64,000 nucleotides of DNA, taken from contig CAYRYW010000002.1 of the NCBI GenBank assembly GCA_964428725.1, positions 27,733 to 91,732 on the forward strand, in the 5' to 3' direction. The DNA comes from an uncultured Dehalococcoidales bacterium. Lineage in GTDB: Bacteria > Chloroflexota > Dehalococcoidia > E44-bin15. Position numbers and translations under genes: made by a program. The stretch's first letter is position 1. Every line of letters begins with the position of its first letter. Under the pieces are notes generated by a model that worked only from the letters and a program-made list of their open reading frames with translations, was not told the DNA's origin and ran no database searches. This document shows positions 19,185-35,476 of this stretch, in pieces.

Positions 19185-19287
19185 TGTTCTGTTTGCAAAA
19201 CAGATTTGACCGTAGTACAGGTTGCCCAGTTTTTTAATTGCCAGTTGAACATTGGACAGGGTGAGTTCGATGAAAAGGAGGGCGAGG

Positions 19288-20232
19288 ATGCTCGGAGCCA
19301 CGTGGGTGATTGGACATCGCGACGCAGATGGTTTTATGTCGGGGTATTTAGCGCACAAGAAGCTGAGCGAATTGGGCGTGCGCGATATAAAGATGCACTC
19401 GATCCAGTACGGAGAGAATCTCCCAAAGATCAATTACGACTTTGACGAAGTGTACATGCTTGACTTTTCGTTGCCTGATCAGGAGATGCGCGAGCTTGCT
19501 GACAAGCTCGGCGATCGGCTCATATGGATAGACCATCATAAGACATCGCTTGATACTGAGAAGAAGATGGAACTGTCCACAGTTCGCGGAGTAAGGATCT
19601 CCTCGGACAATGAGAAGGTTGCAGCGTGCGAGTTGTGCTGGGAGTATTTCTGGCCAGGGCGGAAGGTCCCTGGATGTGTGACGCTGGTAGGAGACTGGGA
19701 TACGTTCCGGTGGGTTGATATGTTGGATGGATCCAATGGCAAGAGGTTCGCTAGGTTCTTCGCTCAGTTTATTGATGGGCTAGGTCTGGATCCGTCCCTC
19801 AAAGAGGCGCGTGACCTTATGGAAGGGTCAATCGAGGAGATACCATCGCTGGAGCATGTTGGGGTCCGAATCGGGAAGATGCTGTGCGAAAAGCAAGACG
19901 CTCTCCACGCTGAGATCATGGAGAATTGCTCATTCACTACGGTGATGACAGTTCCAGAGGGTGATCAGCAGCTTACTGCATTGGTGGTAAACCATCGTGG
20001 CAATAGCTTGATGTTTCAGTCCAAGGTTCAGCCTCGGCATGAGATCCTGGTTAGCTACAGGATGAGGGGGAGAGACTGGGTGGAAGCCAGCTTGTACGGG
20101 GCGTCGGATCATGTCCATTGCGGGGAGATTGCGCGTTCGATAAGCAACGGTAAAGGCGGCGGACACAGGGGTGCTGCTGGGTTCACGATGCCCATGAGTG
20201 AGTTCTACGTGCGCATGGGCATGGATAGATGA
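19288..20232 (+). CDS. DHH/DHHA1-family phosphoesterase (NrnA/RecJ-like core)
   Basis: AAGGAGGG SD; VIGHRDADGFMSG (motif I), YMLDFS, IWIDHHKT (DHH), GGGHRGAAGF (DHHA1 GGGH). Confidence 0.65.
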   Translation: MLGATWVIGHRDADGFMSGYLAHKKLSELGVRDIKMHSIQYGENLPKINYDFDEVYMLDFSLPDQEMRELADKLGDRLIWIDHHKTSLDTEKKMELSTVRGVRISSDNEKVAACELCWEYFWPGRKVPGCVTLVGDWDTFRWVDMLDGSNGKRFARFFAQFIDGLGLDPSLKEARDLMEGSIEEIPSLEHVGVRIGKMLCEKQDALHAEIMENCSFTTVMTVPEGDQQLTALVVNHRGNSLMFQSKVQPRHEILVSYRMRGRDWVEASLYGASDHVHCGEIARSISNGKGGGHRGAAGFTMPMSEFYVRMGMDR

Positions 20233-20492
20233 GCGGCATTCTCAGTCTGAGTAAGTTCCTTTCCAAGAGGGGCAAGGCTGATCTATGTGGTCATGACGTC
20301 ATCGTTATCGACCGAGCGAAGCGCATAGTGATATGCGAGAGGTGCCTTGAGGAGCTGGACCCATTGGAGATGCTTGCCAGGTGCGGAGGTTTCAGTGATC
20401 AAGGAGAGATTGCTATTCAGCCGGGATCAGATAACGATAAGGGTGAGCCGACCCCGTATGCGACCGTGCATCGTTTGCGGCCAAAAAGTTAA
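20229..20492 (+). CDS. hypothetical protein (CERC...C)
   Basis: 87-aa ORF, ATGA overlap with DHH gene. Confidence 0.45.
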   Translation: MSGILSLSKFLSKRGKADLCGHDVIVIDRAKRIVICERCLEELDPLEMLARCGGFSDQGEIAIQPGSDNDKGEPTPYATVHRLRPKS

Positions 20493-20619
20493 GCCTGCAT
20501 ACAAGGGGCTCTGCAAGGATCGTTTTTTTCATTGCAAAAAATCTTGGTCGGTGGACCATCGGACGGGGGAGATTACGTTCGCGATGGATAGCGGTATGAA
20601 AGGGGACGAGGATTATTGA
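20458..20619 (+). CDS. small zinc-ribbon-like protein
   Basis: ATG 20458 in frame of ORF 20347..20619; CIVCGQK...C...HC. Confidence 0.3.
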   Translation: MRPCIVCGQKVKPAYKGLCKDRFFHCKKSWSVDHRTGEITFAMDSGMKGDEDY

Positions 20620-20766
20620 AGGTTCTGTCGAGGGCATCAGATCTGTTAGTCCCGACAGGTGGGTTTGACAATAACCTGTTGTAGGTTTCAAACTTGTATG
20701 AGATACAGGTAGAGAGGAAAAAAACAGTGACAGCGGTATAAAGCTAATTACAAGGAGGGGCTGCCC

Positions 20767-20985
20767 ATGGCGAAAAAAGGTGCTGAGAGGCGAAAGAGTA
20801 AAAGGCCGAGTCGGTATAAGATTTTTCGTTCACAGTGCGAGTGTGGAGCCAGGGCGGTTGATTGGTACAAGGAGGAATTCATTTGCCGGGATTGCATGTG
20901 CCCCGAAGTGGAGGGGCAAGAGATCGGCGATTTAGTGAGGGTGGCCAGCTCTCTTGACTGGTGTGTCCTCGGAGACATGAGATAA
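20767..20985 (+). CDS. hypothetical small basic Cys-rich protein
   Basis: AAGGAGGGG SD 7 nt before ATG. Confidence 0.45.
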   Translation: MAKKGAERRKSKRPSRYKIFRSQCECGARAVDWYKEEFICRDCMCPEVEGQEIGDLVRVASSLDWCVLGDMR

Positions 20986-20987
20986 AT

Positions 20988-21281
20988 ATGACCCCAAGTG
21001 TTTTTAAGAAGATCGCCCCAGGCGGGCGAGCGGGACGCGTTGGTGCGGGCATTAGCTGTGACGCTGGTAAGTTCTACTGCGAGATAGACGTTGCTTCCGG
21101 TGTGGGGAGCTTTGTTGCTCGGCTGAGTAACGGCGAAGAGTACAGAAGATCTCTGGATGAGTTAAGGATAGAATACGATGTGGCTGACGGTAGGGTCGAC
21201 GAGCCGGTGTCGGCTGATTCGTATCTCTTGAAGGGGATCGGATGGGTCCTGACTAAGTACAAACTATCCAAGAGTGACTAA
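20988..21281 (+). CDS. hypothetical protein
   Basis: ATG 20988 2 nt after upstream stop. Confidence 0.45.
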   Translation: MTPSVFKKIAPGGRAGRVGAGISCDAGKFYCEIDVASGVGSFVARLSNGEEYRRSLDELRIEYDVADGRVDEPVSADSYLLKGIGWVLTKYKLSKSD

Positions 21282-21384
21282 TTGGTGAGATCTTCGTAAA
21301 GTCGTGATATGTGTTGATGATTCAATGCTGTTCGGAGCGTAGGCTGATGGAGGAAAACTGTGAAATTGGAAGTTGGTGTCTTCA

Positions 21385-22290
21385 ATGGGTAAAGCAGCTA
21401 AACGTCTAAAGGGTAAGCCAACTGGGCGGATTGCTAATCTTAGGTGTTACGAGACTGTCCATGACATGGTGTGCGCAGGCTATCCGCTGACCGCGATTGC
21501 CAACTTGATACAGGACAAAATGCAAGAGTATCTTGATGTGCCTAAGCAGGCTGTTGTGATGGCCCTTCACAGGTACAGGGAGAGTCTTAAGGATAGCGGG
21601 GATTTGGTCCAGGGTGCAATGCCGAGGGTATTTGTAGAGGCCAAGAAGAAGTTCTCCAACAAAATGCAGGAGCTTGAGCGCCTGGAGGATATGATCCTCG
21701 TGCTCCAGTATCGGATTGATTTGGCCCATGGCGTGGAGCGGATAGCGAACGCAGTTGACCCTGGGGTCGACAGGATGACGAGGGAATTCACGAATGTGGT
21801 TGCGCGAATGCACGACATCAAAATGGATCTTGGACTTGTCGGCTCGCGGGACATCGGTACGATCACAGTCTCTGCGGAGAGACTGGAGGAAGTACGACTT
21901 AAGTACGGGGACAATGCAGCTAAGGCATACGCCGATCCTGTATCTCGAAATAGAGTTCTGGCAGCCATTGGTGCGATACGGAAGGTGTCGGGAGATAAGT
22001 CAGTCGAGCGACTTGCTACTGAGATGGGGGTTTCCGATCCTGACGGTGCTGTGATTGACGCTGAGTTTACGGCCAAAGAAGAGTCTGTCGCGATTCCTGT
22101 CGCGAAAGACGCCGGAGATGTCGCGAAAGCCAAGGGCAAGCCAGTGAAGAAGACCGCGAAAAAGCCCGCGAAGAAGAAGGCCAAGATCAAGCCAGCTGAC
22201 AAGCCAGTGGCGAAAGAGGCGCCGGTCGAAAAGCCTGCCCCAGTTTCAGTTCTCCCTCCTGGGCCAGAGAAGCCGAAGATAAAGAGGTGA
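21385..22290 (+). CDS. putative terminase small subunit
   Basis: Immediately upstream of TerL; N-terminal HTH-like segment, coiled-coil middle, K/A/P-rich basic tail; position analogous to T4 gene 16; no motif proof. Confidence 0.4.
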   Translation: MGKAAKRLKGKPTGRIANLRCYETVHDMVCAGYPLTAIANLIQDKMQEYLDVPKQAVVMALHRYRESLKDSGDLVQGAMPRVFVEAKKKFSNKMQELERLEDMILVLQYRIDLAHGVERIANAVDPGVDRMTREFTNVVARMHDIKMDLGLVGSRDIGTITVSAERLEEVRLKYGDNAAKAYADPVSRNRVLAAIGAIRKVSGDKSVERLATEMGVSDPDGAVIDAEFTAKEESVAIPVAKDAGDVAKAKGKPVKKTAKKPAKKKAKIKPADKPVAKEAPVEKPAPVSVLPPGPEKPKIKR

Positions 22291-22298
22291 GCTTAGCT

Positions 22299-22315
22299 CG
22301 CGAACTCAAGTTCGC
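22299..22315 (+). repeat. palindromic hairpin motif copy 6/12
   Basis: CGCGAACTCAAGTTCGC 8 nt after stop of putative TerS. Confidence 0.7.
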
Positions 22316-22330
22316 AGATGGGGATGACTG

Positions 22331-25300
22331 TTGATAGTTACGACACGCAAGGGGAGAAAGAAGTCTGTAATAACCAAGGAGGAGCTGGCGGCCCATGCCG
22401 GTGACATGGTTGACGCCCTGACAGACGCAGAGCTAGAGCTGGTGATGGGCCTGATAGACGAAGATCCGGAGATTCAGATAGAGCACCACAAGACGATGCG
22501 CGGGCACTTGTACCACCGAGAGCCTGTCTCTATGGAGCAATTCATAGAGGATCCACATTACCTGGGCGAGTCTTGCTCGACTCTCTACCCAGAGCTTAAG
22601 AAAGATCTCATAGATCTGTTTGATTATCCATTCAGAGAAGTTGTGCTCACAGGCGGAATTGGAGTTGGCAAATGCCAACGAGGGGTGAACGAGCTTTATG
22701 ATCCGGTCATGGGGAGAAGGCTAACTGTAGAAGATGCTGCATCTTTTGGCAAGTACAAAGCGTGCGCCACGTTCAACAAGGATGAGCGGAAGACAGTGAG
22801 TGGAGGGTGCAAAGTATTCGAAAGCGGAAGAAAGAAGGCGGGGGATCTCGTGCTTGGGAGCGGGAAGAAGATTGGACTAACTCCTGATCACCCTGTCTTG
22901 ACACCGTGGGGATACAAGCCAGTCGGAGAGCTTAAGAAGGGGGATCTTGTTGCGACTTCGCGAGAGATGCCCTTACCTGAGATGCCTTTGGCTATTTCTG
23001 ACAATGAGGTCAAGTGGGTGGGCTACATCTTGGCAGACGGCGGTGTGACAACGTCTCGGATTGTCTTCGTAAAGGGTGTTGATGAAATAATCTCAGAGTT
23101 TTGGTCTCTGTCGGAATCGCTTGGCGGGGATGTGAAGGAAGAGGATGTGGATGCTGATGCGCGGAGGGTTCGTGTCCTGGGGCTTGATCGCTTGAGGGAT
23201 AAATTTGATCTCAAACACAAGTCCAAGGACAAGAGAGTTCCGAGTGAGTTCTACGGGCTAGACAATCGCCAGCTTGCCTTGTTGCTGAATCGCATTTGGT
23301 CGTGTGATGGATGGTTCTGTCGCAGGGATAAGAAAAAGGGCAACTGGGAGATTGGAATATCCTTAGCCAGTGAGCCGTTCGTGAGGGATATTCAACAGCT
23401 CTTGCTTCGTTTTGGGATTCACTCTCGGATGCGTCCGCGTGAGATGGGGTACACGCACAACGGAGAGAGGAAGCATAGCGATGCTTGGTCTTTGCAGGTG
23501 CTGGGTAGGGATGAAGTTATTAGGTTCTTGAATTCGATTGGAAACCTCGTAGGCAAGGAAGAAGATTGCGAGACTGCGCGGCGCGAACTTGAGTTCGTAA
23601 AGGGCAACTCGAACGTGGACATTACCCCCATGAACAGAGAGGTGATGACCAGGGTTCGTAAAGAGATCGGGCCGGTGCCCAAGAAGGCGTACTGGCCGCG
23701 TCCGGCGCAGGGCTCGCAAATGGGCCACGGGGTGTTCTTGAGATTCGCTGAGGCGTATGATCTTCCCGAGTGGTGCTCCTGGTGGGGTGGAGTATTCTGG
23801 GATGAGGTGGAATCGTATGAGTGCGGCGATGAGTTAGAGCCTGTGTATGACATCGAGGTTCCTAAGACGAGGAACTTCTCAGTGCACGGGGTTATCGTTC
23901 ACAATACGTTCGTGCTCTCAATAGCCATATGCAGGGTGCTTTACGAGCTGTCTTGCTTAGTGAATCCCCAGAAGACTTTCGGCCTGTCGTCGGGTACGGA
24001 GATGGTTATTCCGTTGATCTCAAAGAACCTTCCGCTGGCGCGTGCTGTCATGAAGACGGCGGTTGACGACAAGATCAAAGAGTCTCCGTATTTCATGAAC
24101 GAGTTCTCTCCGAAGATCTCCAAGGAAGCCACGCTGTTTCCTCATAACATCCGAGTGATCATAGGGTCGTACGGTAGTGAGCGAGTTCTTGGCTCGAACG
24201 TTTTCTGTGTTGGGCTTGATGAGTGCCTAATACTAGAGGCAGGTTTGACAACGGAAAGAAAAGGTGTTAGGCGATCCATGACAGTTGGAGATCTTCTGGA
24301 AATGAGTCCAGAGGACGCTGAAAACTGCAAGGTTGTAGGTTTTGATCATGCGGAGAATAAGCTCAAGGCTGGATGGTGGAGAATCAAGAAGTCCACGGTT
24401 CAAGAGCTTGTTGAGATCAGGACTGCGCTGGGGTCGGTATCGCCGTCGAGAAAACATCCCGTTCTTGTCCAAAGAGGAGACTGGCTTGTTTACGTTCATG
24501 CGGAGGATGTCGTCCCTGGCGATTTTGTTGTCATGGAGGATCGTGATGCCAGCGAAGGGGCAGACTGTAAGCGAAGAGCAGAAGAAAAAACAATCGGAGA
24601 AGATGAAGGGTCGAGAGTTATCGGAGGAGACGAAAGAGAAGATGAGATCTGCGCAAAAGGCGCGGTACGAGAATGGGTACGTCAATCCGATGAAGGGGAA
24701 GACTCAGTCAGAGGAGACGAAGAAGAAAATCAGCGAGGCCCAAAAGGGGAGGAAGTTCTCCGAGGAACATCGGCGGAAGATCGGAGAGGCGAATCGCAGA
24801 AGGAAGATCTCGAAAGAGACGCGGGAGCGAATGAGCGAGGCTCAAAAGAGCAAGGCACCTGCAAGCGAGGAGCACAGACGGAAGATAAGCGAAGCCAATA
24901 CAGGCAGGAAGCATACGGACGAAGCTCGTGCGAACATGAGCAAGGCTCAGAAGGGTCGCGCCCTGTCAGAGGATCACAAAAAGAAGCTGTCAGAGGCGGC
25001 CAAGAAGCGCACAGGAGAGGCGAATCACTTCTACGGAAAGACTCACTCCGAGGAGGCGCGGAAGAAGATGAGAGAGGGTCAGGCGGGTGTACAGCGGAAG
25101 CCTCACTCCGAAGAGACAAAGAGAAAGATGAGCGAGTCTCAAAAGGGGCGCAAGTTTTCCGAGGAGACGAAGGAGAAGATGAGAAATGCTGCGAAGCGTC
25201 GTGCAGCCGATCCAGAGTGGCGAAAGAAGATGAGCGAGTCGTCGAAGAGGGGCTGGGCAGAGGGCACCATTGGCCAGAACATGCCACCCCGGCACGGAGA

Positions 25301-28300
25301 GGCGAACCCTTTCTACGGGAAGAAGCACACGGAGGAAACGAAGGCGCGTCTGAGCGAGGTTGCAAAGGCGAGAGAACCTCGCGTGCATACGGAGGCGTCG
25401 AAGGATGCGATTTCCGAGGGGAACATGCGGGCTATCAAGGACGGGACGAGGACGTACAAGTTCCGTGCGACGTCTCCGGATGGTGGGGTTGTGCCTTGCC
25501 GGACAGAGGCGGAGAAGAGACTAGCCGATCATCTTTGTTCTCAGGACGGGGTTGTTTCTGTTGTCGGCGAAGACAAGATGCCGTTTGTGGAGTACGATTT
25601 CAACGGCCAATCCAGGATAACGGTTGCGGACTTCATGGTAACAGCAAGCGACGGTCGAATCATTATCGTAGAAGGGAAGGCGCAGGGGTCGCTATACGGA
25701 GAGAGAGAGAGGGCTCGGTTTCTTGCTACATGGGAGCACTGCAAGGCGTGCGGGTTCGACATGATTATATCATTCAACCATGCAAGGGACCCCGATCTGT
25801 CTCTCGGTCCATTTGTGACACAGGAATTTGTGGAGATGGTGAAACAGGGGTTTGTTCCCATGTCACTGCTTTCGGACAATCGTGCCACTGGGGTTGCGGC
25901 AAGGCGAACGGGCTTTGGGCATCACGGGAAAAGAGTAGCTGGAGGAGACAGAAAGTATCTGTTCAGCACTGTGTCTCCGGACGGGGTGATCGTCAATTGC
26001 AGGACAAGGAACAGCCTGCGTGTAGCCGATCATCTTTGCTCTCAGAGCGGGGTTGTTTCTGTTGTAGGCGAAGACAAGATGAGTGCTATTTATCACAAGG
26101 TGAATGGAGAGGGGCGCCAGACGGTTGCAGACTTCATGGTTACTCGCAGCGACGGACATATTATTTTTGTGAATGTAGAGAGCAACACGTTTGCAGAGAG
26201 CAAGGGCCTCTGTCATCGTATGAATGCAATGTGGGACCATTGCAGGGCTGTCGGTTGCAGTTTCATGATGGTATTTGCCGATGCGTCCGTGGATCCAAAT
26301 GTGTGGGAGGGTCCGTTTGTCACGGATGCGTTTGTCGAGCGCGTCATGGGCACAGGGGTGATTCGACAAGGATTAATGGCCGATGCCAGAGTTCCTGCGT
26401 TGACGGTGGCGTCTCCGAGCGGGAGCACGATCCATTGCGCGACAGAGAAGGAGATGAGGCTGGCGGAGTGCCTATGTCAGCAAGAGGGCGTGGAGTCCAT
26501 TTCCTCAACAAAGAGGGAGTGCGTGGCGAGGTTCGAGTTCGAGGGGCGGGCGCGAAGGGCTGTGGCGGACTTTATTGTTCTCATGCGGGACGGGAGAGAG
26601 GTGGTTGTCTATTCCATACATGGGACAAACGCGAGGAGCGTATCATCAAGGAGTGCGCTCATGGCTATGTGGGATCACTGCAAAGAGATGGGCATGAGCA
26701 TGTTGCTAGCCCTCAAGGAAGCGAGGAATCCAGATCTGTCCCTTGGTCCGTTCGTGACGCAGGAGTTCGTGGATGGGTATATGCGCGGAGATGCCAAGAG
26801 GAGTGCGCTCATAGACAAAAGGCCAAAGGGAAGGAGACCATCTCCGTTGAAGGGCAGGAAACTTGGTCCTCGCAAGAAAATGACGAACTTGAGTTCGCAG
26901 GAATCCGCCCCGAAAGAACACATGTCGAAGAAATCCCTGTCGGTCTTTGCCTCGCGGAAGTAGTGTCCGTTTCTGCCCTGCCCGCTGAACAAACATATTC
27001 TCTATGCACGGAGCATCAGACGTTCATCGCTGATGGGTTCGTGGTGCATAATACGAACTTCCCGCCGAACCGTAAGAGCCAGCAGATCACTACAGCTATG
27101 GGCCAGAAGAAGACAAAGGCTCACTTTGATATTGTGGAGAAGGTCTACCGGAACTTGGTCCGGCGAATAAAGTCCAGGTTCCAGGTTGCAGGCGGGGATT
27201 TCCCTGGGATGATCATCTTGGCTTCTTCGGCTGCTACCCTGGACAGTTTCACTGAGCGGAAAATCCGGGAGAGCAGGCTTGATTCCTCTGTCTTCGTCCG
27301 AGATCACACTCAGTGGACGGCCAAGCCTGGGTCTAACTTCTGCGGGGAGAAGTTCTGGGTTCTGTGTTCGGCGTCCTCTATGCGCTCTAGGATAATCGGA
27401 GACGATGAAGTGAAGCACTTCACCGACGAGTGGCTGGAGGAGAACGATTCTTTTTTGATCGACATTCCGGTTGAGTACAAGTCGGACTTCGAGACAGACA
27501 TTGAGAATGCACTAAGGGACCTTGCTGGTATATCTACTCAGGCTATATCGATTTATATCCAGAGGCCCGACGCGGTGGACGCGTGTGTGAGCGAAGAGAT
27601 GGAGCATCCGTTTACTGCGTATGAGTGGACATCCGGGCAGGCCGGGGCGTTCAAGTGGAACATTCTGTGTAACATGTTCGAGCGTCGGCTGCCTGGCGGA
27701 TACACGGAGACAGCGTGGTCCCCCAAGATTAATCCTTCGAAGATGAGATGGTGTCACATTGATACATCTCTCTCGGGGGACTGTACGGGTTTCTGTGTTG
27801 GTCATATAGACAAGTGGGTTGAGGTAGTAAGGCGAGACGGGGACGGGGTTCGTTACACGGACCTGGCACCCTCTTACGTCATTGACGTGATGTTGCGAGT
27901 GAACCCACCGGCTGGAGAGCAAATCTACATGCCGGACTTGCGTCGTTTCATTTACGAACTACAGGCACATGGTTATCAGTTCCTTGGGTTTTCGTCGGAC
28001 ACATACCAGTCGGCGGAGATGCACCAGCAAGTAAAGAGAAGGGGGATTTCTACCCATATCATATCGACGGATACGTCCACGGATCCTTACGATGAGCTGA
28101 AGATGGCGATGTACGAGAACCGGATTACGTACTATCATTATCAGCCATTTATTGAGGAAATCAAAGACTTGGAATATGATCGCAACGTGGGCAAGATCGA
28201 TCATCAGCAGGCCGGGTGTTTTGTCGGAGAGACGCGGATTCCTCTTCTGGATGGAAGCTGCCCTATGATCTCAGAGTTGGATGGGGTGGATACGTGGGTG

Positions 28301-28870
28301 TACTCCTGTACAGAGGGTGGTCGCATTGTTCCGGGCCGAGCAAGGGGTCGATTAACGAAAGAGGTGACCGAGCTTGTGGATGTGGTTCTGGACAGCGGGG
28401 CTGTCGAGAGGTGTACGCATGAGCACCTTTGGATGTTGAGGGACGGGACGTACAAGAAGGCATGCGACTTGGATCCTGGCATTGACCGTTTGATGCCGAT
28501 TGATTTGAATTCTTTTCCGGTTGAGCACAAGGTCAGGCATGTAACTCCTGTTCGCCTTGATAAGCCGGTGGCTGTGTATGACTTAGAGGTTGAGGAGTAT
28601 TCCAACTTCTCGCTTTCTTCTGGAGTGTTCGTCCACAACTCCAAAGACGTTAGTGACGCAGTAGCGGGTGTGGTGTATGGTTTGATGAAGACATCGACCA
28701 AAATCCCTGCGATTGTGGGCGATAGTAAAAGTGCCGCTGTTGAAAACGAATACGACTGGGTCTCACCTATGATCCAGACGGACGGCATAAGCGCCGAAGA
28801 GCTAAGGGACATGAAGGACGCGGGAGATACAGACGTGTCGGAGTATGTCCCTATTGTGTTTGGAGACTGA
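22331..28870 (+). CDS. terL: terminase large subunit precursor interrupted by three inteins
   Basis: 2179-aa stop-free frame. Exteins: Walker A GGIGVGK|T, Walker [10 protein letters not shown]-terminal RNase-H-like nuclease ([21 protein letters not shown]|[10 protein letters not shown]). TTG start assumed and uncertain. Confidence 0.8.
22673..23905 (+). mobile_element. TerL intein 1 (411 aa) in P-loop, LAGLIDADG homing endonuclease domain
   Basis: Starts Cys after GVGK, block [18 protein letters not shown] motifs GYILADGG and [10 protein letters not shown], ends VYDIEV...[11 protein letters not shown]|T. Confidence 0.8.
23581..23597 (+). repeat. palindromic motif copy 7/12, inside intein-1 endonuclease coding region
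   Basis: GCGCGAACTTGAGTTCG encodes ARRELEFV in frame. Confidence 0.6.
24546..26963 (+). CDS. homing-endonuclease-like protein nested in intein 2 in the +1 frame, with own RBS
   Basis: GGAGGA 5 nt before ATG 24546. About 9 tandem NUMOD3 repeats ([22 protein letters not shown]). Then 3 tandem ~140-aa PD-(D/E)xK-like domains, first intact (E.R...VADFMV...IVEGK), two degenerate. Confidence 0.7.
26883..26898 (+). repeat. palindromic motif copy 8/12, at 3' end of nested endonuclease gene
   Basis: ACGAACTTGAGTTCGC; read as NDELEFAG in terminase frame and MTNLSSQ in endonuclease frame. Confidence 0.6.
28217..28639 (+). mobile_element. TerL intein 3 (141-aa mini-intein) in nuclease active-site motif
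   Basis: [13 protein letters not shown]..., block [10 protein letters not shown], ends [24 protein letters not shown]|S. Confidence 0.75.
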
Positions 28871-28871
28871 T

Positions 28872-31718
28872 ATGGGATTTACCGAACTAGTCAAAGGGCT
28901 CTTCAAGAGGGACAGGGATGTCCAGGCAGCAGCTATTGCCAAGGGTACGGCGATTGCTACCAACGTCTCTGTTGACAGTATGGATCCGAGTAGCGGGACA
29001 GAGGGCGTCAATGCCCTTCAGAGCCAGCTAGCCATCGAGCAAGATCTGATTTCTCGTTACATAGATTACGAGAATATGGACGACTATGTTGAAACCAGCG
29101 CAGCTCTAACGGTGTTCGCGGATGACTCTACTATTCCAGATACCCTCCATAGGAAGACCGTGTGGGCTACGTCGGAGGATCGGCTCGTTCGCGATCTTCT
29201 GAACGACATGCTTCACAGGATGATCCGTATCGAGGAGGACGCCTGGGTCACAGTTAGGAGCTTGGCAAAGTACGGGAACTTGTACGGGGAGGTTCTGACC
29301 ACAAAGGGCGGGGTAATAGGTATCAACTGGCTTCCCGCACCGTCGATACGTAGAATAATAAACAGCAAAGGCGTCCTTCTTGGGTTCATCCAAGATGTGT
29401 CTGGGCAGTTCAACTACGATGCGGGGGCGCTTGTAGAGGCTCTAGAGGCTGGCAAGAAGCCCATTCCTGAAAACGAGAACAACTCTGGGATTACCTTCTT
29501 CTACCCTTGGGAGATGGTCCATTGGCGGCTGCGCTCCAAGCGGCTTCGCTCTCCTTACGGGTACGGTGTTCTAGACAGTTCACGGTGGATCTGGAAGCGT
29601 CTCCAGTTGATGGAGGACACAGCCCTGGTTCAAAAGCTGACAAGGGCTCCGGGTCGGTATGCGTTCTACGTGGATACCGGAGACTTGCCGCCTAAAGAAG
29701 CGGTGGCTCTTGTCCGCAAGGTTAAGAGCGGATTCAAGAAGAAGCGTCTGATCGATCCGAGCACAGGCCAGCTGGATCTTCGCAATAACCCGCTGTGCCT
29801 AGCGGGTGACACGGAAGTTCCTCTCCTTGATGGGAGTAAAAAAACGATAGTCGAGATGGCGGAAGCGTTCGACAGGGGCGAGGAGCAGTGGGTTTACGGC
29901 GTTGACAGGAAAAATAACAGCAAGATGGTTCCTGGCAAGGTTGTGTGGGCAGGTCAGACACGTAAAGACGCTGAGCTAGTGCGCGTTACATTAGATAATG
30001 GCGAGTCTTTCAGGGTTACTCCTGATCATAAGTGCATATTGAGAAGCGGAGATCTGAAGGATGCCCAGGACTTGGTTCCTGGCGAATCCTTGATGCCGTT
30101 GCGTAGGACAATCTCTTCTTTTGAGAAGGGAGACACGATGGACGGGTATGAGAAGGTCTACGATCCGTCCAGCAAGAAATATGTGTATACGCACAGGATG
30201 GTTGTGCGGGAACTAGGGATGAAGGAAAAAGGCAAGCTCACTCATCACAACGCAGGGAAGCTGAATAACAATCCTAGTTGCCTTGAGAGCATGACATGGA
30301 GAGAGCACTCGGAGCATCATTGTAAACTGGGGCAAATGGGCGGTGCTAAACTCAGAGAGCTTCGCAAGACGGATAAAGCTCTGGATCAAAAGTTACGAGA
30401 TGCAGCGTCGAGGACGCTTAAAGAGCGTCACGCTGATCCTGAGTGGAAAAAGAGGAATGCTGAGGCAGTGCGTCGGAGTAACATCGAGCGTGATAGTGGT
30501 AGGTACATCCGTGCCTATAACGATTCTGACAAGCATGTAGAAGACAACGCGCAGAGAAGCTCCGCCATGAAGGCGTTCTGGACCGATGATGCCAGGTCTG
30601 AGTATTCGGAAACTAGGACGATCAGCTACTCGGATGTCTTCATTTCGGCGCTAGAGGAATTCGTCAGGAGCAACCCTGGGTCGAGCGCAGACGATGTGGC
30701 AGACTTCGTGTCTAGCGATTCTGTTGCTCTAGGTCTTCTCAATGAGGGAAGTTGCCGCGTGATAAAGAAAGCCCATCGTCATTTGCTTTTAAAGGCGTAT
30801 AGGGCGCATGGCTATTCTAACTTCAGCGAGTTCAAGGAATCTGCGTGTTCCTACAATCACAAAGTTGTGTCTGTTGAGCGTCTTTCCGAGAGAGAGGACA
30901 CGTATACGCTGACTGTTGACTCGTGTCACAACTTTGGCCTTTCTTCTGGGGTTGTAGTTTGCAACTCGCCATCCGAAGATTTTTGGATTCCTACCCGTGG
31001 AGGGAAAGATTCCACAAGGATCGAAGTCATCTCTGGGCCAGATGTTCAGATGATGGACGACGTGGAATACTTCCAAGGCAAGCTGGTTACATCGACGACG
31101 GTTCCGAGGCGCTTCATGGGTCTTGGGGATCCTGGTGACTCTACGAACATGATGGCGTCCCAGGATGACGTGAGATTTGCCCGTGCCTGTATGAGGCTCC
31201 AGCGTGAGTACGTGCAGGGGCTTGAGAAGGTTGCCCGTATACATCTCGCGGCGTTGAACATCGATCCCGATTCTGTGCCTTGGCAAATCAAGATGACGGT
31301 TCCGTCTGCGATCTTCGAGATGCAGCAGATTGAGGTTATGAATGCCCAAGCTGGGCTGGCGTCTTCGCTGTCTGATTACATGAGCAAGCCTTGGATTCTC
31401 CAACGCGTGTTCAACTTCACGAGAGACGATGCCCAGGCTATGATCCAGGCGAAACGCGATGAGGAGTCCGGGGATGTTGTCCGGGAAGCCGAAGCGCAAG
31501 CGAAGGTCATGAAGTTATTCCCCGAGCTTGAGGGCGCACTCGACGACAAAGACGGGGGAGGGAAAGAAGAAAGCGTTTCCCCTAAGAAGGCACCTATAGC
31601 GGAGAACGAGGACAGGAGGCTTCTTCGCTCCTTGAGCAAGAAGGCTAACGCGATTGAGCGTTCTGTCACTCGGATCAATAAAATGTCACGGATCAACGGG
31701 TCCGGAAAGAGGAGTTAG
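28872..31718 (+). CDS. portal protein (T4 gp20-like position) precursor with one intein
   Basis: GGAG SD 7 nt before ATG, 1 nt after TerL stop; ~950 aa follows TerL; extein resumes SPSEDFWIPTRGGKDS... Confidence 0.65.
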   Translation: MGFTELVKGLFKRDRDVQAAAIAKGTAIATNVSVDSMDPSSGTEGVNALQSQLAIEQDLISRYIDYENMDDYVETSAALTVFADDSTIPDTLHRKTVWATSEDRLVRDLLNDMLHRMIRIEEDAWVTVRSLAKYGNLYGEVLTTKGGVIGINWLPAPSIRRIINSKGVLLGFIQDVSGQFNYDAGALVEALEAGKKPIPENENNSGITFFYPWEMVHWRLRSKRLRSPYGYGVLDSSRWIWKRLQLMEDTALVQKLTRAPGRYAFYVDTGDLPPKEAVALVRKVKSGFKKKRLIDPSTGQLDLRNNPLCLAGDTEVPLLDGSKKTIVEMAEAFDRGEEQWVYGVDRKNNSKMVPGKVVWAGQTRKDAELVRVTLDNGESFRVTPDHKCILRSGDLKDAQDLVPGESLMPLRRTISSFEKGDTMDGYEKVYDPSSKKYVYTHRMVVRELGMKEKGKLTHHNAGKLNNNPSCLESMTWREHSEHHCKLGQMGGAKLRELRKTDKALDQKLRDAASRTLKERHADPEWKKRNAEAVRRSNIERDSGRYIRAYNDSDKHVEDNAQRSSAMKAFWTDDARSEYSETRTISYSDVFISALEEFVRSNPGSSADDVADFVSSDSVALGLLNEGSCRVIKKAHRHLLLKAYRAHGYSNFSEFKESACSYNHKVVSVERLSEREDTYTLTVDSCHNFGLSSGVVVCNSPSEDFWIPTRGGKDSTRIEVISGPDVQMMDDVEYFQGKLVTSTTVPRRFMGLGDPGDSTNMMASQDDVRFARACMRLQREYVQGLEKVARIHLAALNIDPDSVPWQIKMTVPSAIFEMQQIEVMNAQAGLASSLSDYMSKPWILQRVFNFTRDDAQAMIQAKRDEESGDVVREAEAQAKVMKLFPELEGALDDKDGGGKEESVSPKKAPIAENEDRRLLRSLSKKANAIERSVTRINKMSRINGSGKRS
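29796..30965 (+). mobile_element. portal intein (390 aa) with HNH endonuclease domain
   Basis: CLAGDTEVPLLDG (block A), TPDHKCIL (block B), HNH region KLTHHNAGKLNNNPSCLESMTWREHSEHH, C-term CHNFGLSSGVVVCN|S (penultimate Cys not His). Confidence 0.7.
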
Positions 31719-33649: not shown

Positions 33650-33745
33650 GCCGTCGCAAAGGCGGCAAAGAGAGAAGGACGAAGTATTCGTCTGGTCGCA
33701 AGGAGGCAGTAGGTTTTGAGTCACTCAAGAAAAGCGCTCGTCCGG

Positions 33746-35476
33746 ATGGGAAGAAAACTGATAGGAAAGTCTCCCCAGAAGCCAAGCGGAGGCTCAAGCG
33801 AAACCCTCTTAGAAGAATACTCGCACGTCAGAAGGCGTGGTGAAGAAACAGGTGATGGAATGCCCCAGGTGCTAATCGAAGCTAGCCCGGTTCAGATGAC
33901 TCTCACGGAGTCTAAGAACGGGAAATTTGTTGCTCGTGGTGAGTTCGGACGCGTAGGTATCCCAACTCAAAATGGTCGCATCTATCGTAAAGAGCTGATG
34001 AACAGAGAGATCGGCAGACTTTCGGAGGACATCTCTTCTCGTCGGGTACTAGGTGAGCTTGACCATCCATCCGACGGTAAGACTTCGCTAAAGCGGGTTT
34101 CTCATGTGATTACCGATCTGACAGTCAACGATGACGGTCTGATTATCGGAGAGGCAGAGATTCTGGATACCGCAGAGGGTAAGAATCTCAAGGCCCTCAT
34201 CGCTGCCAATGTTCAGATAGGCGTTTCCTCTCGTGGATTCGGGAGCACTCGCCCATCTGACGATCCCAAGGTGGAAGGCGATGTTGTCCAAGATGACTTC
34301 GTTCTGAAGACATGGGATTTCGTAGCTGATCCTGCGGTCAAGACAGCGCTTCCTGAGATCTTCATCGAGGATGTTAACGAGAAAGAGGATGCAGCAGATC
34401 TGTTCTTGGCTGAGTTCCCTGAGATTGCAGGGAAGATCCAAGAGGACGCCAGGGTGAAGGCCCAGGCAGAGATCGACGCTACTGCCAAGGAAGAACTCCG
34501 CAGGGAAATGGCGGAGGGATTCGAGCAGCGTTTAGCGGATGCAATCACTGGTGTGCGTGCGGATCTCACTGAGTCCATCCGTGAAGAGTTCCAGTCCGAT
34601 CCAGAGGTAGGCGGGGCGAAAGGCGTCCTGGCTGCTATCTCTGAGATGGTGTCTGCGTACAACTCGGTTCCAGACGAGGACGCTGTACGCGATTCTCTCC
34701 GAGCTTCCGAGCTAGAGGTATCCGAGGCAAGGCAGCAAGCCAAGGATGCCGAGAAAGCGGCGCTGAGAGCGCAGTGCGAGCTGGTTATCGAGAGGAACAT
34801 CGGCGAGCACCCGATGCGTGATGCGTTTAGGAATATCATCGAGGGTGTAGAATTCACCAGCGTGGATGACGCAGAACGCAAGATTGGCATCATGATCGAG
34901 GAAGCCCCTGACCTGAGTGAGGGGTATGTGTCTGATGCAGAGGCGGAGCTTCGCGAGGAGAACGCCAAGTTAAAAGGTCAAATTTCTCTCCTGTCGGAGA
35001 AGACTGATACGTTGAATGATAAATTGTTGAAAGCTGTAGAAGTGGGTACGGAGGCCAGCGATCAATTACAGGCGGCGCGAAACGCCTTGGAAGAGTTCGA
35101 TGGCAAACTTGAGGCTATGACGGAAGAGCGCGACGAAGCATTAGCCGAGGCGGATAATGCGGAGAAGCGTTCCAGGTTGGAAGCCTACAAGGTCCAAAAG
35201 GTTGCTGGATTGTCTAATGGTAGACAGTTGATGAGCGTAATGGAGGGTGTAACTTCCAAGAGCGCAATTGATACGTTGGTTGAAGAGAGGGGAGTTCAAG
35301 GGATCCCAGGAGGAGATCTGGAGGCTATGCGGGCAAGGTTGTCCCGTGGCCAGGCCATGTCCGAGAGGGAATTGAACGAGTCGCATCAAGCTAAGCCTTC
35401 CGCATCTGGTCGTCCACAGGTCGACGAGTTCGGTAACAACATGAGCGAGATGCAACGCCTAGCCGGTCTGGAGTAA
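33746..35476 (+). CDS. putative prohead protease fused to coiled-coil scaffold-like C-terminal half (start uncertain)
   Basis: N-part ...RVLGELDHPSDGK... resembles prohead protease motif (memory-based); C-part ~350 aa E/A/K-rich coiled-coil; ORF open from 33716 (TTG). Confidence 0.4.
   Translation: MGRKLIGKSPQKPSGGSSETLLEEYSHVRRRGEETGDGMPQVLIEASPVQMTLTESKNGKFVARGEFGRVGIPTQNGRIYRKELMNREIGRLSEDISSRRVLGELDHPSDGKTSLKRVSHVITDLTVNDDGLIIGEAEILDTAEGKNLKALIAANVQIGVSSRGFGSTRPSDDPKVEGDVVQDDFVLKTWDFVADPAVKTALPEIFIEDVNEKEDAADLFLAEFPEIAGKIQEDARVKAQAEIDATAKEELRREMAEGFEQRLADAITGVRADLTESIREEFQSDPEVGGAKGVLAAISEMVSAYNSVPDEDAVRDSLRASELEVSEARQQAKDAEKAALRAQCELVIERNIGEHPMRDAFRNIIEGVEFTSVDDAERKIGIMIEEAPDLSEGYVSDAEAELREENAKLKGQISLLSEKTDTLNDKLLKAVEVGTEASDQLQAARNALEEFDGKLEAMTEERDEALAEADNAEKRSRLEAYKVQKVAGLSNGRQLMSVMEGVTSKSAIDTLVEERGVQGIPGGDLEAMRARLSRGQAMSERELNESHQAKPSASGRPQVDEFGNNMSEMQRLAGLE

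What the first reader, a model, noticed from the sequence alone, without database searches (positions are those of the whole stretch)
24224..27052. Intein carrying a complete homing-endonuclease gene in a different reading frame while the host frame stays open (overprinted intein)
In TerL intein 2 the N-terminal (CLILEAG...GDFVV) and C-terminal ([10 protein letters not shown]|T) splicing domains are in the terminase frame. Between them the obviously real protein, with NUMOD3 repeats and nuclease domains, is in the +1 frame. It has its own SD (GGAGGA) 5 nt before ATG 24546 and its own stop at 26961. Inteins normally carry their endonuclease in frame. Here the terminase frame nevertheless runs about 830 codons without a stop through this region, encoding R/G/E/C-rich low-complexity sequence. 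No other alternative-frame ORF in this 64 kb exceeds about 250 codons. Reading the endonuclease codons by eye, I found no T-ending codon followed by a codon starting AA, AG or GA, which is exactly the constraint needed to keep the terminase frame open. This suggests selection for read-through, so the intein could still splice and TerL still be made. It may be a snapshot of a free-standing HEN invading a mini-intein.
Basis: partly seen in the sequence, partly recalled or inferred. Interest (0 to 1): 0.93.

Follow-up and report, generated by a model that had tools for sequence, protein, structure and literature searches.

The report
Terminase intein with out-of-frame homing endonuclease
A self-splicing protein insert (intein) in a phage DNA-packaging gene carries its 805-codon homing-endonuclease gene in a shifted reading frame, and careful codon choice keeps the packaging gene's own frame free of stop codons; this rare layout has been described recently, but this is a very large, well-conserved example with a new type of nuclease.

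Summary
Intein 2 of the terminase large subunit (TerL; 24224-27052) has its splicing halves in the TerL frame. An 805-aa homing endonuclease (HEN; 24546-26963) sits in the +1 frame with its own Shine-Dalgarno (SD) site, and the TerL frame has no stop across it. Synonymous-codon shuffles expect 43 stops (minimum 23 in 20,000). T-ending codons are never used before AA/AG/GA codons (0/188), against 38% elsewhere in the gene and 27% at such positions in other window genes.

Eleven further metagenomic loci (GC 35-66%, TerL C-extein 45-63% identical in the nine measured) have the same intein, site, +1 HEN and open host frame. Pooled over all 12 loci: 0/957 against 738/2416, with about 190 stops expected. 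Most relatives have an empty site. Two have mini-inteins, and one still carries the HEN start and tail.

The HEN frame is conserved (57% aa identity, pN/pS 0.41). The host frame over it is not (29%, 1.44). The HEN is a NUMOD3 array plus a TnsA-like PD-(D/E)xK nuclease, with one intact and two degenerate copies here.

This is a stable overprinted intein, not a snapshot of invasion. Out-of-frame intein HENs are already described (Gorbalenya 1998, as cited by the preprints read; preprints of 2025-2026), so it is a new variant of a known, rare kind.

The parts
22331..28870 (+). TerL (terminase large subunit) precursor ORF, 2179 aa, carrying three inteins. The spliced exteins total 684 aa.
   Evidence: ORF. 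The C-extein is ~32% identical to annotated phage TerL proteins. Intein-free homologues of 683-702 aa are seen.
24224..27052 (+). Intein 2 (943 codons in the TerL frame), inserted after the Walker-B-like ...GLDE and followed by Thr +1 (27053-27055).
   Evidence: Boundaries. Empty-site relatives read GLDE|TNFPP. PF14890 matches residues 19-943 against profile positions 10-155.
24224..24541 (+). N-terminal splicing domain in the TerL frame (Cys1; block B S-x-x-H in ...[10 protein letters not shown]...; ends ...GDFVVMED).
   Evidence: Alignments A1 and A4 with invariant C1, H78, P79 and others. The profile matches solved inteins only.
24535..24540 (+). Shine-Dalgarno sequence GGAGGA for the endonuclease, 5 nt upstream of the ATG. 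It is embedded in TerL-frame codons.
   Evidence: Sequence. A purine-rich SD (GGAGG in 8 of 12 loci, weaker GGAGA/GAGG variants in the rest) sits at the same distance from the ATG in all 12 loci.
24546..26963 (+). Homing-endonuclease ORF (805 aa plus stop) in the +1 frame relative to TerL.
   Evidence: Pfam NUMOD3 E=4e-44 and PHROG homing endonuclease E=5e-35. NCBIfam TnsA-like E=1.4e-11.
24603..25400 (+). NUMOD3 repeat array (DNA-binding repeats) of the endonuclease. At least 7 clear repeats, with repeat spacings that are multiples of 3 nt.
25410..25853 (+). Nuclease domain 1: TnsA-like PD-(D/E)xK fold with intact candidate catalytic residues (GED ... ADF ... VEGK).
25953..26360 (+). Nuclease domain 2: a tandem duplicate with the ExK motif lost (VNVE).
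   Evidence: Alignment A2. A 59-nt stretch is 93% identical to domain 1 at a spacing of 501 nt.
26394..26795 (+). Nuclease domain 3: a tandem duplicate with both the ED and ExK motifs lost (STK ... VYSI).
   Evidence: Alignment A2.
24542..26884 (+). TerL-frame read-through linker (781 codons), hydrophilic and low-complexity (G/R/E/S/C-rich). No family match and no stop codon.
   Evidence: No Pfam or NCBIfam hit. Composition and 16.5% hydrophobic residues. Host-frame identity between loci is 29% with pN/pS 1.44.
26885..27052 (+). C-terminal splicing region in the TerL frame ([11 protein letters not shown]...[11 protein letters not shown]...[22 protein letters not shown]).
   Evidence: Invariant G, R, E, V, EQTYS, TF, HN columns in A4. 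TIGR01443 intein_Cterm scores above its cut-off.
26885..26963 (+). The only stretch where both frames probably matter: the endonuclease's poorly conserved C-terminal tail overlaps the start of the C-terminal splicing region.
   Evidence: Coordinates. The tail varies between loci while the host frame is conserved.

Best explanation
This is a non-canonical ('overprinted') class-1-type intein in the terminase large subunit of a myovirus with a T4-like structural module.

Ribosomes that translate TerL read straight through the intein in frame 0. The product is N-extein, a ~106-aa N-splicing domain, a ~780-aa hydrophilic and probably disordered linker, a ~56-aa C-splicing domain, and C-extein. The two splicing halves associate, excise the whole 943-aa insert and ligate TerL (inferred).

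The same mRNA segment carries an independent cistron in the +1 frame. A conserved SD and ATG lie right after the N-splicing domain. They drive translation of a homing endonuclease made of a NUMOD3 DNA-binding array and a TnsA-like PD-(D/E)xK nuclease. This enzyme presumably cuts intein-less TerL alleles during co-infection, so that the intein and HEN are copied in (inferred).

A stop in frame 0 would abolish TerL and kill the phage. In this frame relationship every possible frame-0 stop is a T at a HEN third codon position followed by AA/AG/GA, and every NNT codon has a synonymous NNC codon. Selection can therefore purge all stops at no cost to the endonuclease, and it has done so completely.

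In the window's lineage the endonuclease grew by in-frame tandem duplications, giving extra NUMOD3 repeats and two further, now catalytically degenerate, nuclease domains. Both frames were preserved automatically. The element follows a homing cycle: empty sites, full inteins, and HEN-deleted mini-inteins all occur among relatives.
For: Shown directly:
- Zero frame-0 stops against 43 expected (minimum 23 in 20,000 shuffles). T-ending codons 0/188 at stop-forming positions against 154/403 elsewhere. Other window genes use T there 27% of the time, and their open runs are at most 130 codons. T use at harmless positions (38%) matches the 36% at the same kind of position in the other window genes, so the constraint is specific to stops.
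- Eleven more loci from independent assemblies share the intein site, a +1 HEN with an SD at the same distance from the ATG and the N-terminus M[PA]xKG (L028 reads MRKGE), and an open host frame. Pooled over 12 loci: 0/957 against 738/2416, ~190 stops expected and 0 seen. This includes an AT-rich locus (HEN GC 0.38, 25 expected).
- A gap-free 142-codon alignment of 9 loci gives HEN-frame identity 57% and pN/pS 0.41, against host-frame identity 29% and pN/pS 1.44.
- The HEN frame matches NUMOD3 (4e-44), homing-endonuclease PHROGs and a TnsA-like family. The host-frame linker matches nothing.
- The splicing halves carry Cys1, SxxH, HN|T. They match the Pfam and TIGR intein models, and a profile of them hits only solved inteins.
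- Empty sites occur in 12 relatives. L017 is a 1290-nt in-frame deletion of an L018-like HEN that retains the SD, the ATG plus two codons, and the HEN tail.

Precedent for the architecture.
Against: - Nothing here shows protein splicing, translation of either frame, or endonuclease activity. All of these are inferred.
- A 780-aa linker with 6.4% Cys inside an intein is unusually large, and its effect on splicing is unknown.
- Initiation at an internal SD inside a translated ORF may be inefficient.
- Pfam's intein model scores below its gathering threshold on the stitched splicing domain (26.8 against 35.8 bits).
- The 12 loci are related by descent, so they are not fully independent tests, although synonymous sites are near saturation.
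- The cleavage target is unknown.
Confidence: 0.85

Rival explanations
1. Fractured gene with a split intein (the arrangement of Dassa et al. 2009). TerL-N plus IntN and IntC plus TerL-C would be made as separate polypeptides flanking a free-standing HEN gene, and joined by trans-splicing. The open frame across the HEN would then be irrelevant.
For: The layout (IntN, HEN with its own SD and ATG, IntC) resembles fractured genes (PMC2677866). In the window a host-frame GTG (26963-26965) overlaps the HEN stop codon and could in principle restart a 30-aa IntC (read from the sequence).
Against: A split arrangement needs a stop after IntN, and none exists in any of 12 loci. It also gives no reason to purge ~190 expected stops. 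The GTG/stop overlap is not conserved, because HEN stops fall at different places in other loci. The conserved host-frame segment ELEFAG.R.ER lies upstream of that GTG.
Confidence: 0.04
2. Programmed ribosomal frameshifting. Ribosomes would shift +1 near 24540 and back near 26960, producing a canonical in-frame intein with an endonuclease domain.
For: A strong internal SD (GGAGG) lies just upstream of the frame junction, and internal SDs stimulate some known frameshifts (established knowledge of prfB and dnaX).
Against: If the shifted frame were the one read, there would be no selection to keep frame 0 open for 800 codons, yet that selection is absolute. An ATG preceded by a purine-rich SD at 5-7 nt is conserved in all 12 loci, as expected for ordinary initiation. 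In L010 a +1-frame stop lies immediately before the start, so no fusion could form. No shift-back signal was seen by eye near the HEN stop, but no systematic search for slippery sites was run.
Confidence: 0.03
3. True dual coding. The frame-0 polypeptide across the HEN would be a functional domain (for example a regulator of splicing or packaging) rather than a passive linker.
For: It is always translated if TerL is made. Its composition is consistently hydrophilic.
Against: It has no family match. Identity between loci is only 29% with pN/pS 1.44, which is what overlap with a conserved +1 frame would give. Its length varies from ~0 (mini-inteins) to ~780 aa. Its composition follows from HEN codon positions 1-2 becoming host positions 2-3. 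T use at positions that cannot create a stop is the same as in the other window genes.
Confidence: 0.05
4. Artefact or chance. Two compensating indel errors in the assembly, or a compositional accident of a purine-rich strand.
For: The coding strand is purine-rich (AT skew up to 0.58 over the NUMOD3 part), which lowers the stop frequency somewhat.
Against: The null model preserves composition, amino acids and codon usage and still expects 43 stops. Twelve independent assemblies from different samples show the same frame relationship. With indel errors the frame-0 read-through would still be unexplained.
Confidence: 0.01

Closest known systems
Non-canonical inteins with out-of-frame or antisense homing endonucleases (Gosselin, Arsenault & Gogarten, bioRxiv 10.1101/2025.01.02.630785; Phillips, DeSimone & Gogarten, bioRxiv 10.64898/2026.09.14.751524; both cite Gorbalenya 1998 for earlier cases)
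   Same: The HEN ORF lies between the splicing blocks in a frame other than the host's. The host-frame stretch is stop-free and unstructured. A Shine-Dalgarno sequence sits before the HEN start. The HEN frame is under purifying selection while the host frame shows inflated dN/dS. Empty, full and mini-intein alleles coexist. TerL is among the reported hosts.
   Different: The published cases use endonuclease VII-like (frame 3), LAGLIDADG (+2 or antisense) or Vsr-like (antisense) HENs. Here the HEN is a NUMOD3 array plus a TnsA-like PD-(D/E)xK nuclease in the +1 frame. It has 1-3 tandem nuclease domains and an overlap of up to 2.4 kb. The hosts are uncultivated phages with T4-like structural genes, not actinophages or cyanobacteria. 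The passages of those papers that I read report no codon-level test of stop purging.
ShiLan-type out-of-frame HNH insertions in phage DNA methylase genes (Arsenault et al. 2025, PMC11855218)
   Same: A homing endonuclease ORF is hidden in an alternative frame of an insertion that adds no stop codon to the host gene.
   Different: ShiLan has no splicing domains and stays in the host protein as a loop. Here clear intein splicing blocks flank the insert, so it can be removed.
Fractured genes with split inteins and free-standing Vsr-like (EDxHD) HENs (Dassa et al. 2009, PMC2677866; I-Bth0305I, PMC3239194)
Canonical phage TerL inteins, such as this same gene's intein 1 with an in-frame LAGLIDADG
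   Same: HINT splicing domain, insertion at a conserved ATPase motif of TerL, sporadic distribution.
   Different: The endonuclease is in frame in the canonical case.

Membership tests
Intein (HINT splicing domain, class 1 type) | In-frame insertion at a conserved host site that is uninterrupted in homologues | tested here: met
   Twelve relatives read ...(G/C/M/I)(L/C)DE|TNFPP... with no insert. The insert is in frame in all carriers.
Intein (HINT splicing domain, class 1 type) | N-terminal Cys/Ser nucleophile, block B (T/S)xxH, C-terminal HN, and Cys/Ser/Thr at +1 | tested here: met
   C1, S75-x-x-H78, H167-N168 are invariant in 9 sequences, and Thr +1 is present in all.
Intein (HINT splicing domain, class 1 type) | Sequence-profile match to intein splicing models or solved inteins | tested here: met
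   TIGR01443 scores 17.1 bits against a cut-off of 15.6. PF14890 gives E=5e-6 but is below its gathering score (26.8 against 35.8 bits). The family profile hits Pho RadA (9e-7), Pab PolC, NrdJ-1, TFIIB, Spl DnaX and Mxe GyrA inteins; 19 of the 20 listed matches (E up to 1) are inteins and the one exception is a weak Sm-like protein at E=0.22.
Intein (HINT splicing domain, class 1 type) | Protein splicing activity | not testable with these tools
   Inferred from TerL being essential and the host frame being kept open.
Non-canonical intein with out-of-frame HEN | A complete HEN ORF between the splicing blocks in another frame, with its own translation signals | tested here: met
   +1 ORF 24546-26963. 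The SD and ATG are conserved in 12 loci.
Non-canonical intein with out-of-frame HEN | Host frame stop-free across the HEN, beyond chance | tested here: met
   0 stops against 43 expected in the window. 0 against ~190 over 12 loci.
Non-canonical intein with out-of-frame HEN | Purifying selection on the HEN frame and not on the overlapping host frame | tested here: met
   pN/pS 0.41 against 1.44. Amino-acid identity 57% against 29%.
PD-(D/E)xK nuclease, TnsA-like | Restriction-endonuclease-like fold | tested here: met
PD-(D/E)xK nuclease, TnsA-like | Catalytic acidic residues and Lys (E/D ... D ... ExK) | tested here: met
   GED, (A/G/P)DF and (V/I)E(G/A)K are conserved in the first domain of 9 loci. 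They are lost in the extra domains. Assigning them as catalytic is by analogy, not tested.
PD-(D/E)xK nuclease, TnsA-like | Curated family HMM above threshold | tested here: not met
   PF08722 best E=0.001, below its gathering score. NF033179 scores 44 bits against a cut-off of 110. The domain has the fold and the motifs, but it is not a member of the curated TnsA families.
Vsr-like EDxHD homing endonucleases (I-Bth0305I family) | EDxHD catalytic motif and close similarity to Vsr or I-Bth0305I | tested here: not met
Fractured gene / split intein | The host gene is broken into two ORFs, with a stop after IntN and a start before IntC | tested here: not met
   No host-frame stop in any of 12 loci.
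Group I/II intron with HEN ORF | Ribozyme structure flanking the ORF | tested here: not met
   No Rfam match at E<=0.1 in 22000-29000. The insert is translated in frame with intein motifs.

The most novel reading that the evidence does not exclude
The element would be a previously undescribed family of homing endonucleases (NUMOD3 array plus TnsA-like PD-(D/E)xK nuclease). Among the close relatives whose genomic context I could read, all but one live as +1-frame overprints inside one TerL intein. On this reading the overprint is an evolutionarily stable end state rather than a transition. It would be stable because in this particular frame relationship every host-frame stop can be removed by a synonymous NNT-to-NNC change. 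The window's 3-domain version, with one active and two degenerate nuclease domains, would represent evolution towards a single-chain asymmetric enzyme. It would also give one of the longest same-strand two-frame overlaps (2.4 kb) in any phage.
Probability: 0.45. Interest if true: 0.72.

Novelty: new variant of a known kind. Interest (0 to 1): 0.62.

Why it matters
It gives the clearest quantitative demonstration I could find, in the material I searched, that an essential gene's frame is kept open purely by synonymous codon choice in an overlapping selfish gene. Across 12 diverged loci, 0 of 957 permissive positions use T.

It shows that out-of-frame intein endonucleases are not confined to actinophages and cyanobacteria, and that they can be long-lived.

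It adds a new nuclease class (TnsA-like PD-(D/E)xK with NUMOD3) to intein-associated homing endonucleases. That supports the 'splicing domain first, endonuclease invades later' view of intein origins.

There is a practical consequence. Gene callers miss such nested endonucleases: a word-indexed search of 5.8 billion predicted protein clusters found no match to the nuclease domain. They also annotate an inflated 2179-aa 'terminase'.

The intein tolerates a ~780-aa unstructured insert, which is of interest for intein engineering. The endonuclease is a candidate new site-specific enzyme.

Tried and rejected
- Megablast of the TerL region against 50,697 phage records found no match.
- tblastn of the HEN against phages matched only the NUMOD3 part, in ordinary free-standing or intron HENs, and nothing matched the nuclease part.
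- A single-sequence pattern scan of IMG/VR with the three-domain region found nothing. An alignment-based scan was needed.
- The search for homologous proteins with nuclease domain 1 gave no hit.
- A profile of the nuclease domain against PDB sequences gave nothing meaningful (one toxin at E=0.24). A fold comparison was required.
- P0012, a 1709-aa repeat protein in the exhaustive search, is a low-complexity false positive.
- The promoter and terminator scan of 24000-27200 found no sigma-70-like promoter. The 'terminator-like' hits are weak, and two of them are simply the duplicated HLCSQ.GVVSVV coding segment.
- The 68-codon upstream extension of the +1 ORF (24342-24545) is not conserved in relatives and is taken as chance.
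- I looked for selection on the linker beyond stop avoidance. T-ending codon use at harmless positions (38%) matches the 36% at the same kind of position in other window genes, so none was detected.

Full report
**What is in the window**

The ORF 22331-28870 encodes a 2179-aa precursor. Its exteins, 684 aa once three inserts are removed, are ~32% identical to annotated phage terminase large subunits. They are 58-73% identical to 15 IMG/VR relatives.

The neighbouring genes are a T4-type portal, a prohead protease, a gp23-like capsid protein, a tail sheath and a tail tube. The window therefore comes from a myovirus with a T4-like structural module.

TerL carries three inteins:
- Intein 1 (22673-23905) has an in-frame LAGLIDADG domain.
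- Intein 2 (24224-27052) is the finding.
- Intein 3 (28217-28639) is a mini-intein.

**Checking the observation**

Across 24224-27052 the TerL frame has no stop. The +1 frame is open from 24342 to the TAG at 26961-26963. The third frame has 49 stops and the reverse frames have 20-31. GGAGGA lies 5 nt before ATG 24546.

The +1 protein (805 aa) matches NUMOD3 (E=4e-44), homing-endonuclease PHROGs (5e-35), an NCBIfam group I intron endonuclease model and a TnsA-like model (1.4e-11). The TerL-frame translation of the same DNA (781 aa) matches nothing.

With the HEN in the +1 frame, a TerL-frame stop can only be formed by a HEN codon ending in T followed by a codon starting AA, AG or GA. There are 269 such 'danger' positions, and at 188 of them the amino acid has a T-ending codon available. 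None uses T. Elsewhere in the gene 154/403 do.

Permuting synonymous codons within the gene keeps the protein and the codon usage unchanged. It gives 42.9 +/- 4.7 TerL-frame stops, never fewer than 23 in 20,000 trials. The third frame behaves as expected, with 40 observed against 36.6.

Twenty-one other coding segments of the window use T at danger positions 27% of the time. They never stay open for more than 130 codons in that relative frame.

**Relatives**

Twelve of the 15 TerL relatives read ...GLDE|TNFPP... without an insert, which fixes the intein boundaries. I then scanned IMG/VR and JGI metagenomes with alignments of the intein N-domain and of the nuclease domain, and ran an exhaustive HMM search of 1.84 billion protein representatives.

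These gave eleven further distinct loci: L010, L018 (=L032), L020, L021, L022, L023, L027, L028, L033 (=L034), L036 and L038. Each has the same intein at the same site, a homologous HEN in the +1 frame and an open TerL frame.

They span locus GC of 35-66% (HEN GC 0.38-0.67). The C-extein is 45-63% identical to the window's in the nine loci measured.

Expected host-frame stops per locus range from 3 (GC-rich, short HEN) to 25 (AT-rich L027). All loci have zero. Pooled over the 12 loci, T-ending codons are 0/957 at danger positions against 738/2416 elsewhere, with ~190 stops expected.

A purine-rich SD lies 5-7 nt before the ATG in every locus, and the N-terminus reads M[PA]xKG in eleven of the twelve (L028 reads MRKGE).

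**Which frame is under selection**

A gap-free 142-codon alignment of the first nuclease domain from nine loci gives these means:
- HEN frame: amino-acid identity 57%, pN/pS 0.41. The closest pair gives dN/dS 0.11.
- TerL frame over the same nucleotides: identity 29%, pN/pS 1.44.

The endonuclease is therefore a maintained protein. The host-frame product is constrained only to lack stops. Consistent with this, T use at harmless positions (38%) equals the 36% at the same kind of position in the other window genes.

The linker is rich in G, R, E, S and C and only 16.5% hydrophobic. This follows from HEN codon positions 1-2, which are purine-rich, becoming host positions 2-3.

**The endonuclease**

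The motifs GED, (A/G/P)DF and (V/I)E(G/A)K are conserved in every first domain. The window's second and third domains, and L018's second, have lost them.

The closest relative found (L033, 79% nt identity) has a single domain and the same C-terminal tail. The window's three-domain form therefore probably arose by in-frame tandem duplication, although loss of two domains in the L033 lineage is not excluded. A 59-nt stretch is still 93% identical between domains 1 and 2 at a spacing of 501 nt, and NUMOD3 repeat spacings are multiples of 3.

The family is rare, with 32 hits at E<=1e-3 in 1.84 billion representatives. The close hits whose context could be read are all nested in the TerL intein, with one exception: P0010, a free-standing gene in a related phage contig with degenerate catalytic residues. 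More distant free-standing HEN-like proteins exist (P0014, P0015).

**The intein**

The splicing halves carry Cys1, SxxH, HN and Thr +1, all invariant in nine sequences. They match TIGR01443 above its cut-off and PF14890 at E=5e-6. As a profile they hit essentially only solved inteins: 19 of the 20 listed matches, with the one exception a weak Sm-like protein at E=0.22.

The HEN ORF begins right after the N-domain. Its poorly conserved tail overlaps about 26 codons of the conserved C-terminal region (26885-26963). This is the only place where both frames probably matter.

No Rfam family, and so no group I or II intron, is detected.

**Life cycle**

L004 and L017 have HEN-less mini-inteins at the same site. 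L017 is 98-99% identical to L018 in the flanks. It differs by replacement of 1301 nt with 11 nt, a net loss of 1290 nt that keeps the frame.

L017 still carries the SD, the HEN's ATG plus two codons, and its last ~42 codons. L004 keeps a remnant of the HEN tail. The mini-inteins are therefore decay products, not the uninvaded ancestor. Empty, full and mini alleles coexist, as in a homing cycle.

**Interpretation and rivals**

The best explanation is cis-splicing through a long read-through linker, plus independent initiation of the HEN from its own SD and ATG. Host-frame stops are purged because TerL is essential. Every NNT codon has a synonymous NNC codon, so this purge costs the endonuclease nothing.

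- A split-intein 'fractured gene' is contradicted by the absence of any host-frame stop.
- Programmed frameshifting would remove the need for an open frame 0.
- A functional linker is contradicted by its lack of conservation and by its variable length, which includes zero.
- Assembly error is excluded by twelve independent assemblies.

Splicing, translation of both frames and nuclease activity remain inferred.

**Comparison with the literature**

Out-of-frame or antisense HENs inside inteins are described in two preprints that I read:
- Gosselin et al. 2025 report an endonuclease VII-like HEN in frame 3 and antisense LAGLIDADG and Vsr-like HENs, with TerL among the hosts.
- Phillips et al. 2026 report a +2-frame LAGLIDADG in cyanobacterial dnaX, with frame-dependent omega.

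Both cite Gorbalenya 1998 for earlier cases. A related intein-less case is the ShiLan HNH.

A full-text search found no paper that describes a TnsA-like homing endonuclease in an intein; the three papers holding all three terms are gene-editing and CRISPR reviews.

The architecture is therefore known but rare. What appears to be new is the nuclease class, the +1 frame, the multi-domain expansion, the 2.4-kb overlap, the different phage lineage and the codon-level proof of stop purging.

Noticed in passing
window 22673-23905 and 28217-28639; L010, L020, L022, L027, L017/L018: TerL in this phage lineage is an intein hot spot. The window has a LAGLIDADG intein at the P-loop (GIGVGK|C...HN|T) and a mini-intein near the C-terminus. 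In L004, L010, L022 and L027 the intein at that C-terminal site carries an in-frame HNH-like insert. L020 has two inteins near Walker A, and L017/L018 have another at ...ISGD|C. At least five distinct insertion sites occur in one gene family.
   Followed up: partly
window 28845-31718 (intein about aa 325-707): The T4-type portal gene also contains an intein (PF14890 E=3e-16) with an in-frame His-rich, HNH-like middle region. L010's portal has one at the same place, and L004's portal has none.
   Followed up: partly
window 34213-34968 (- strand): This is the only other nested ORF of at least 250 aa in the window. It is a 251-aa antisense ORF inside the prohead-protease gene 33716-35476. I did not test whether it is more than chance.
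   Followed up: no
L035 5001-5714 (Logan SRR23867498 contig, 70 kb): A free-standing 237-aa homologue of the nuclease domain (P0010, E=3e-25). It has no NUMOD3 array, its catalytic residues are degenerate (D to N, K to S), and it has an extra C-terminal region. It lies upstream of an SNF2 helicase and an intein-bearing large ORF in a phage-like contig. It could be a relic or a domesticated copy of the ancestral free-standing gene.
   Followed up: partly
window 25522-25580 and 26023-26081: A 59-nt segment is 93% identical between nuclease domains 1 and 2, although the domains are only 46% identical in protein overall. This suggests a recent duplication followed by fast divergence, or gene conversion between the copies.
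   Followed up: partly
L017 6001-6570 and L018 5926-7806 (start of the intein): In otherwise 98-99% identical genomes the first ~20 residues of the intein differ completely (CLGRESRLSIYDNGNGTQF against CLSGSAWLQIKINIDFCAGLCDTIGM, a 21-nt length difference). This is a local replacement right after the catalytic Cys.
   Followed up: no
window 26960-26965: The endonuclease stop codon TAG overlaps a TerL-frame GTG (GTAGTG) just before the last ~30 residues of the intein. The configuration resembles termination-reinitiation coupling. It is not conserved in relatives, so it is probably fortuitous.
   Followed up: partly
window 19252-20232: A DHH/DHHA1-family phosphoesterase gene lies upstream of the packaging module. 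All ORFs of at least 250 aa except one lie on the + strand, and GC skew is positive throughout the 20000-30000 stretch profiled.
   Followed up: no
L036 4485-8786: The gene caller on this contig annotated the nested endonuclease and a 477-aa 'gene' for the TerL C-part, and left the N-part uncalled. The TerL frame is in fact open for 1433 codons. This shows how such loci get mis-annotated as split genes.
   Followed up: yes
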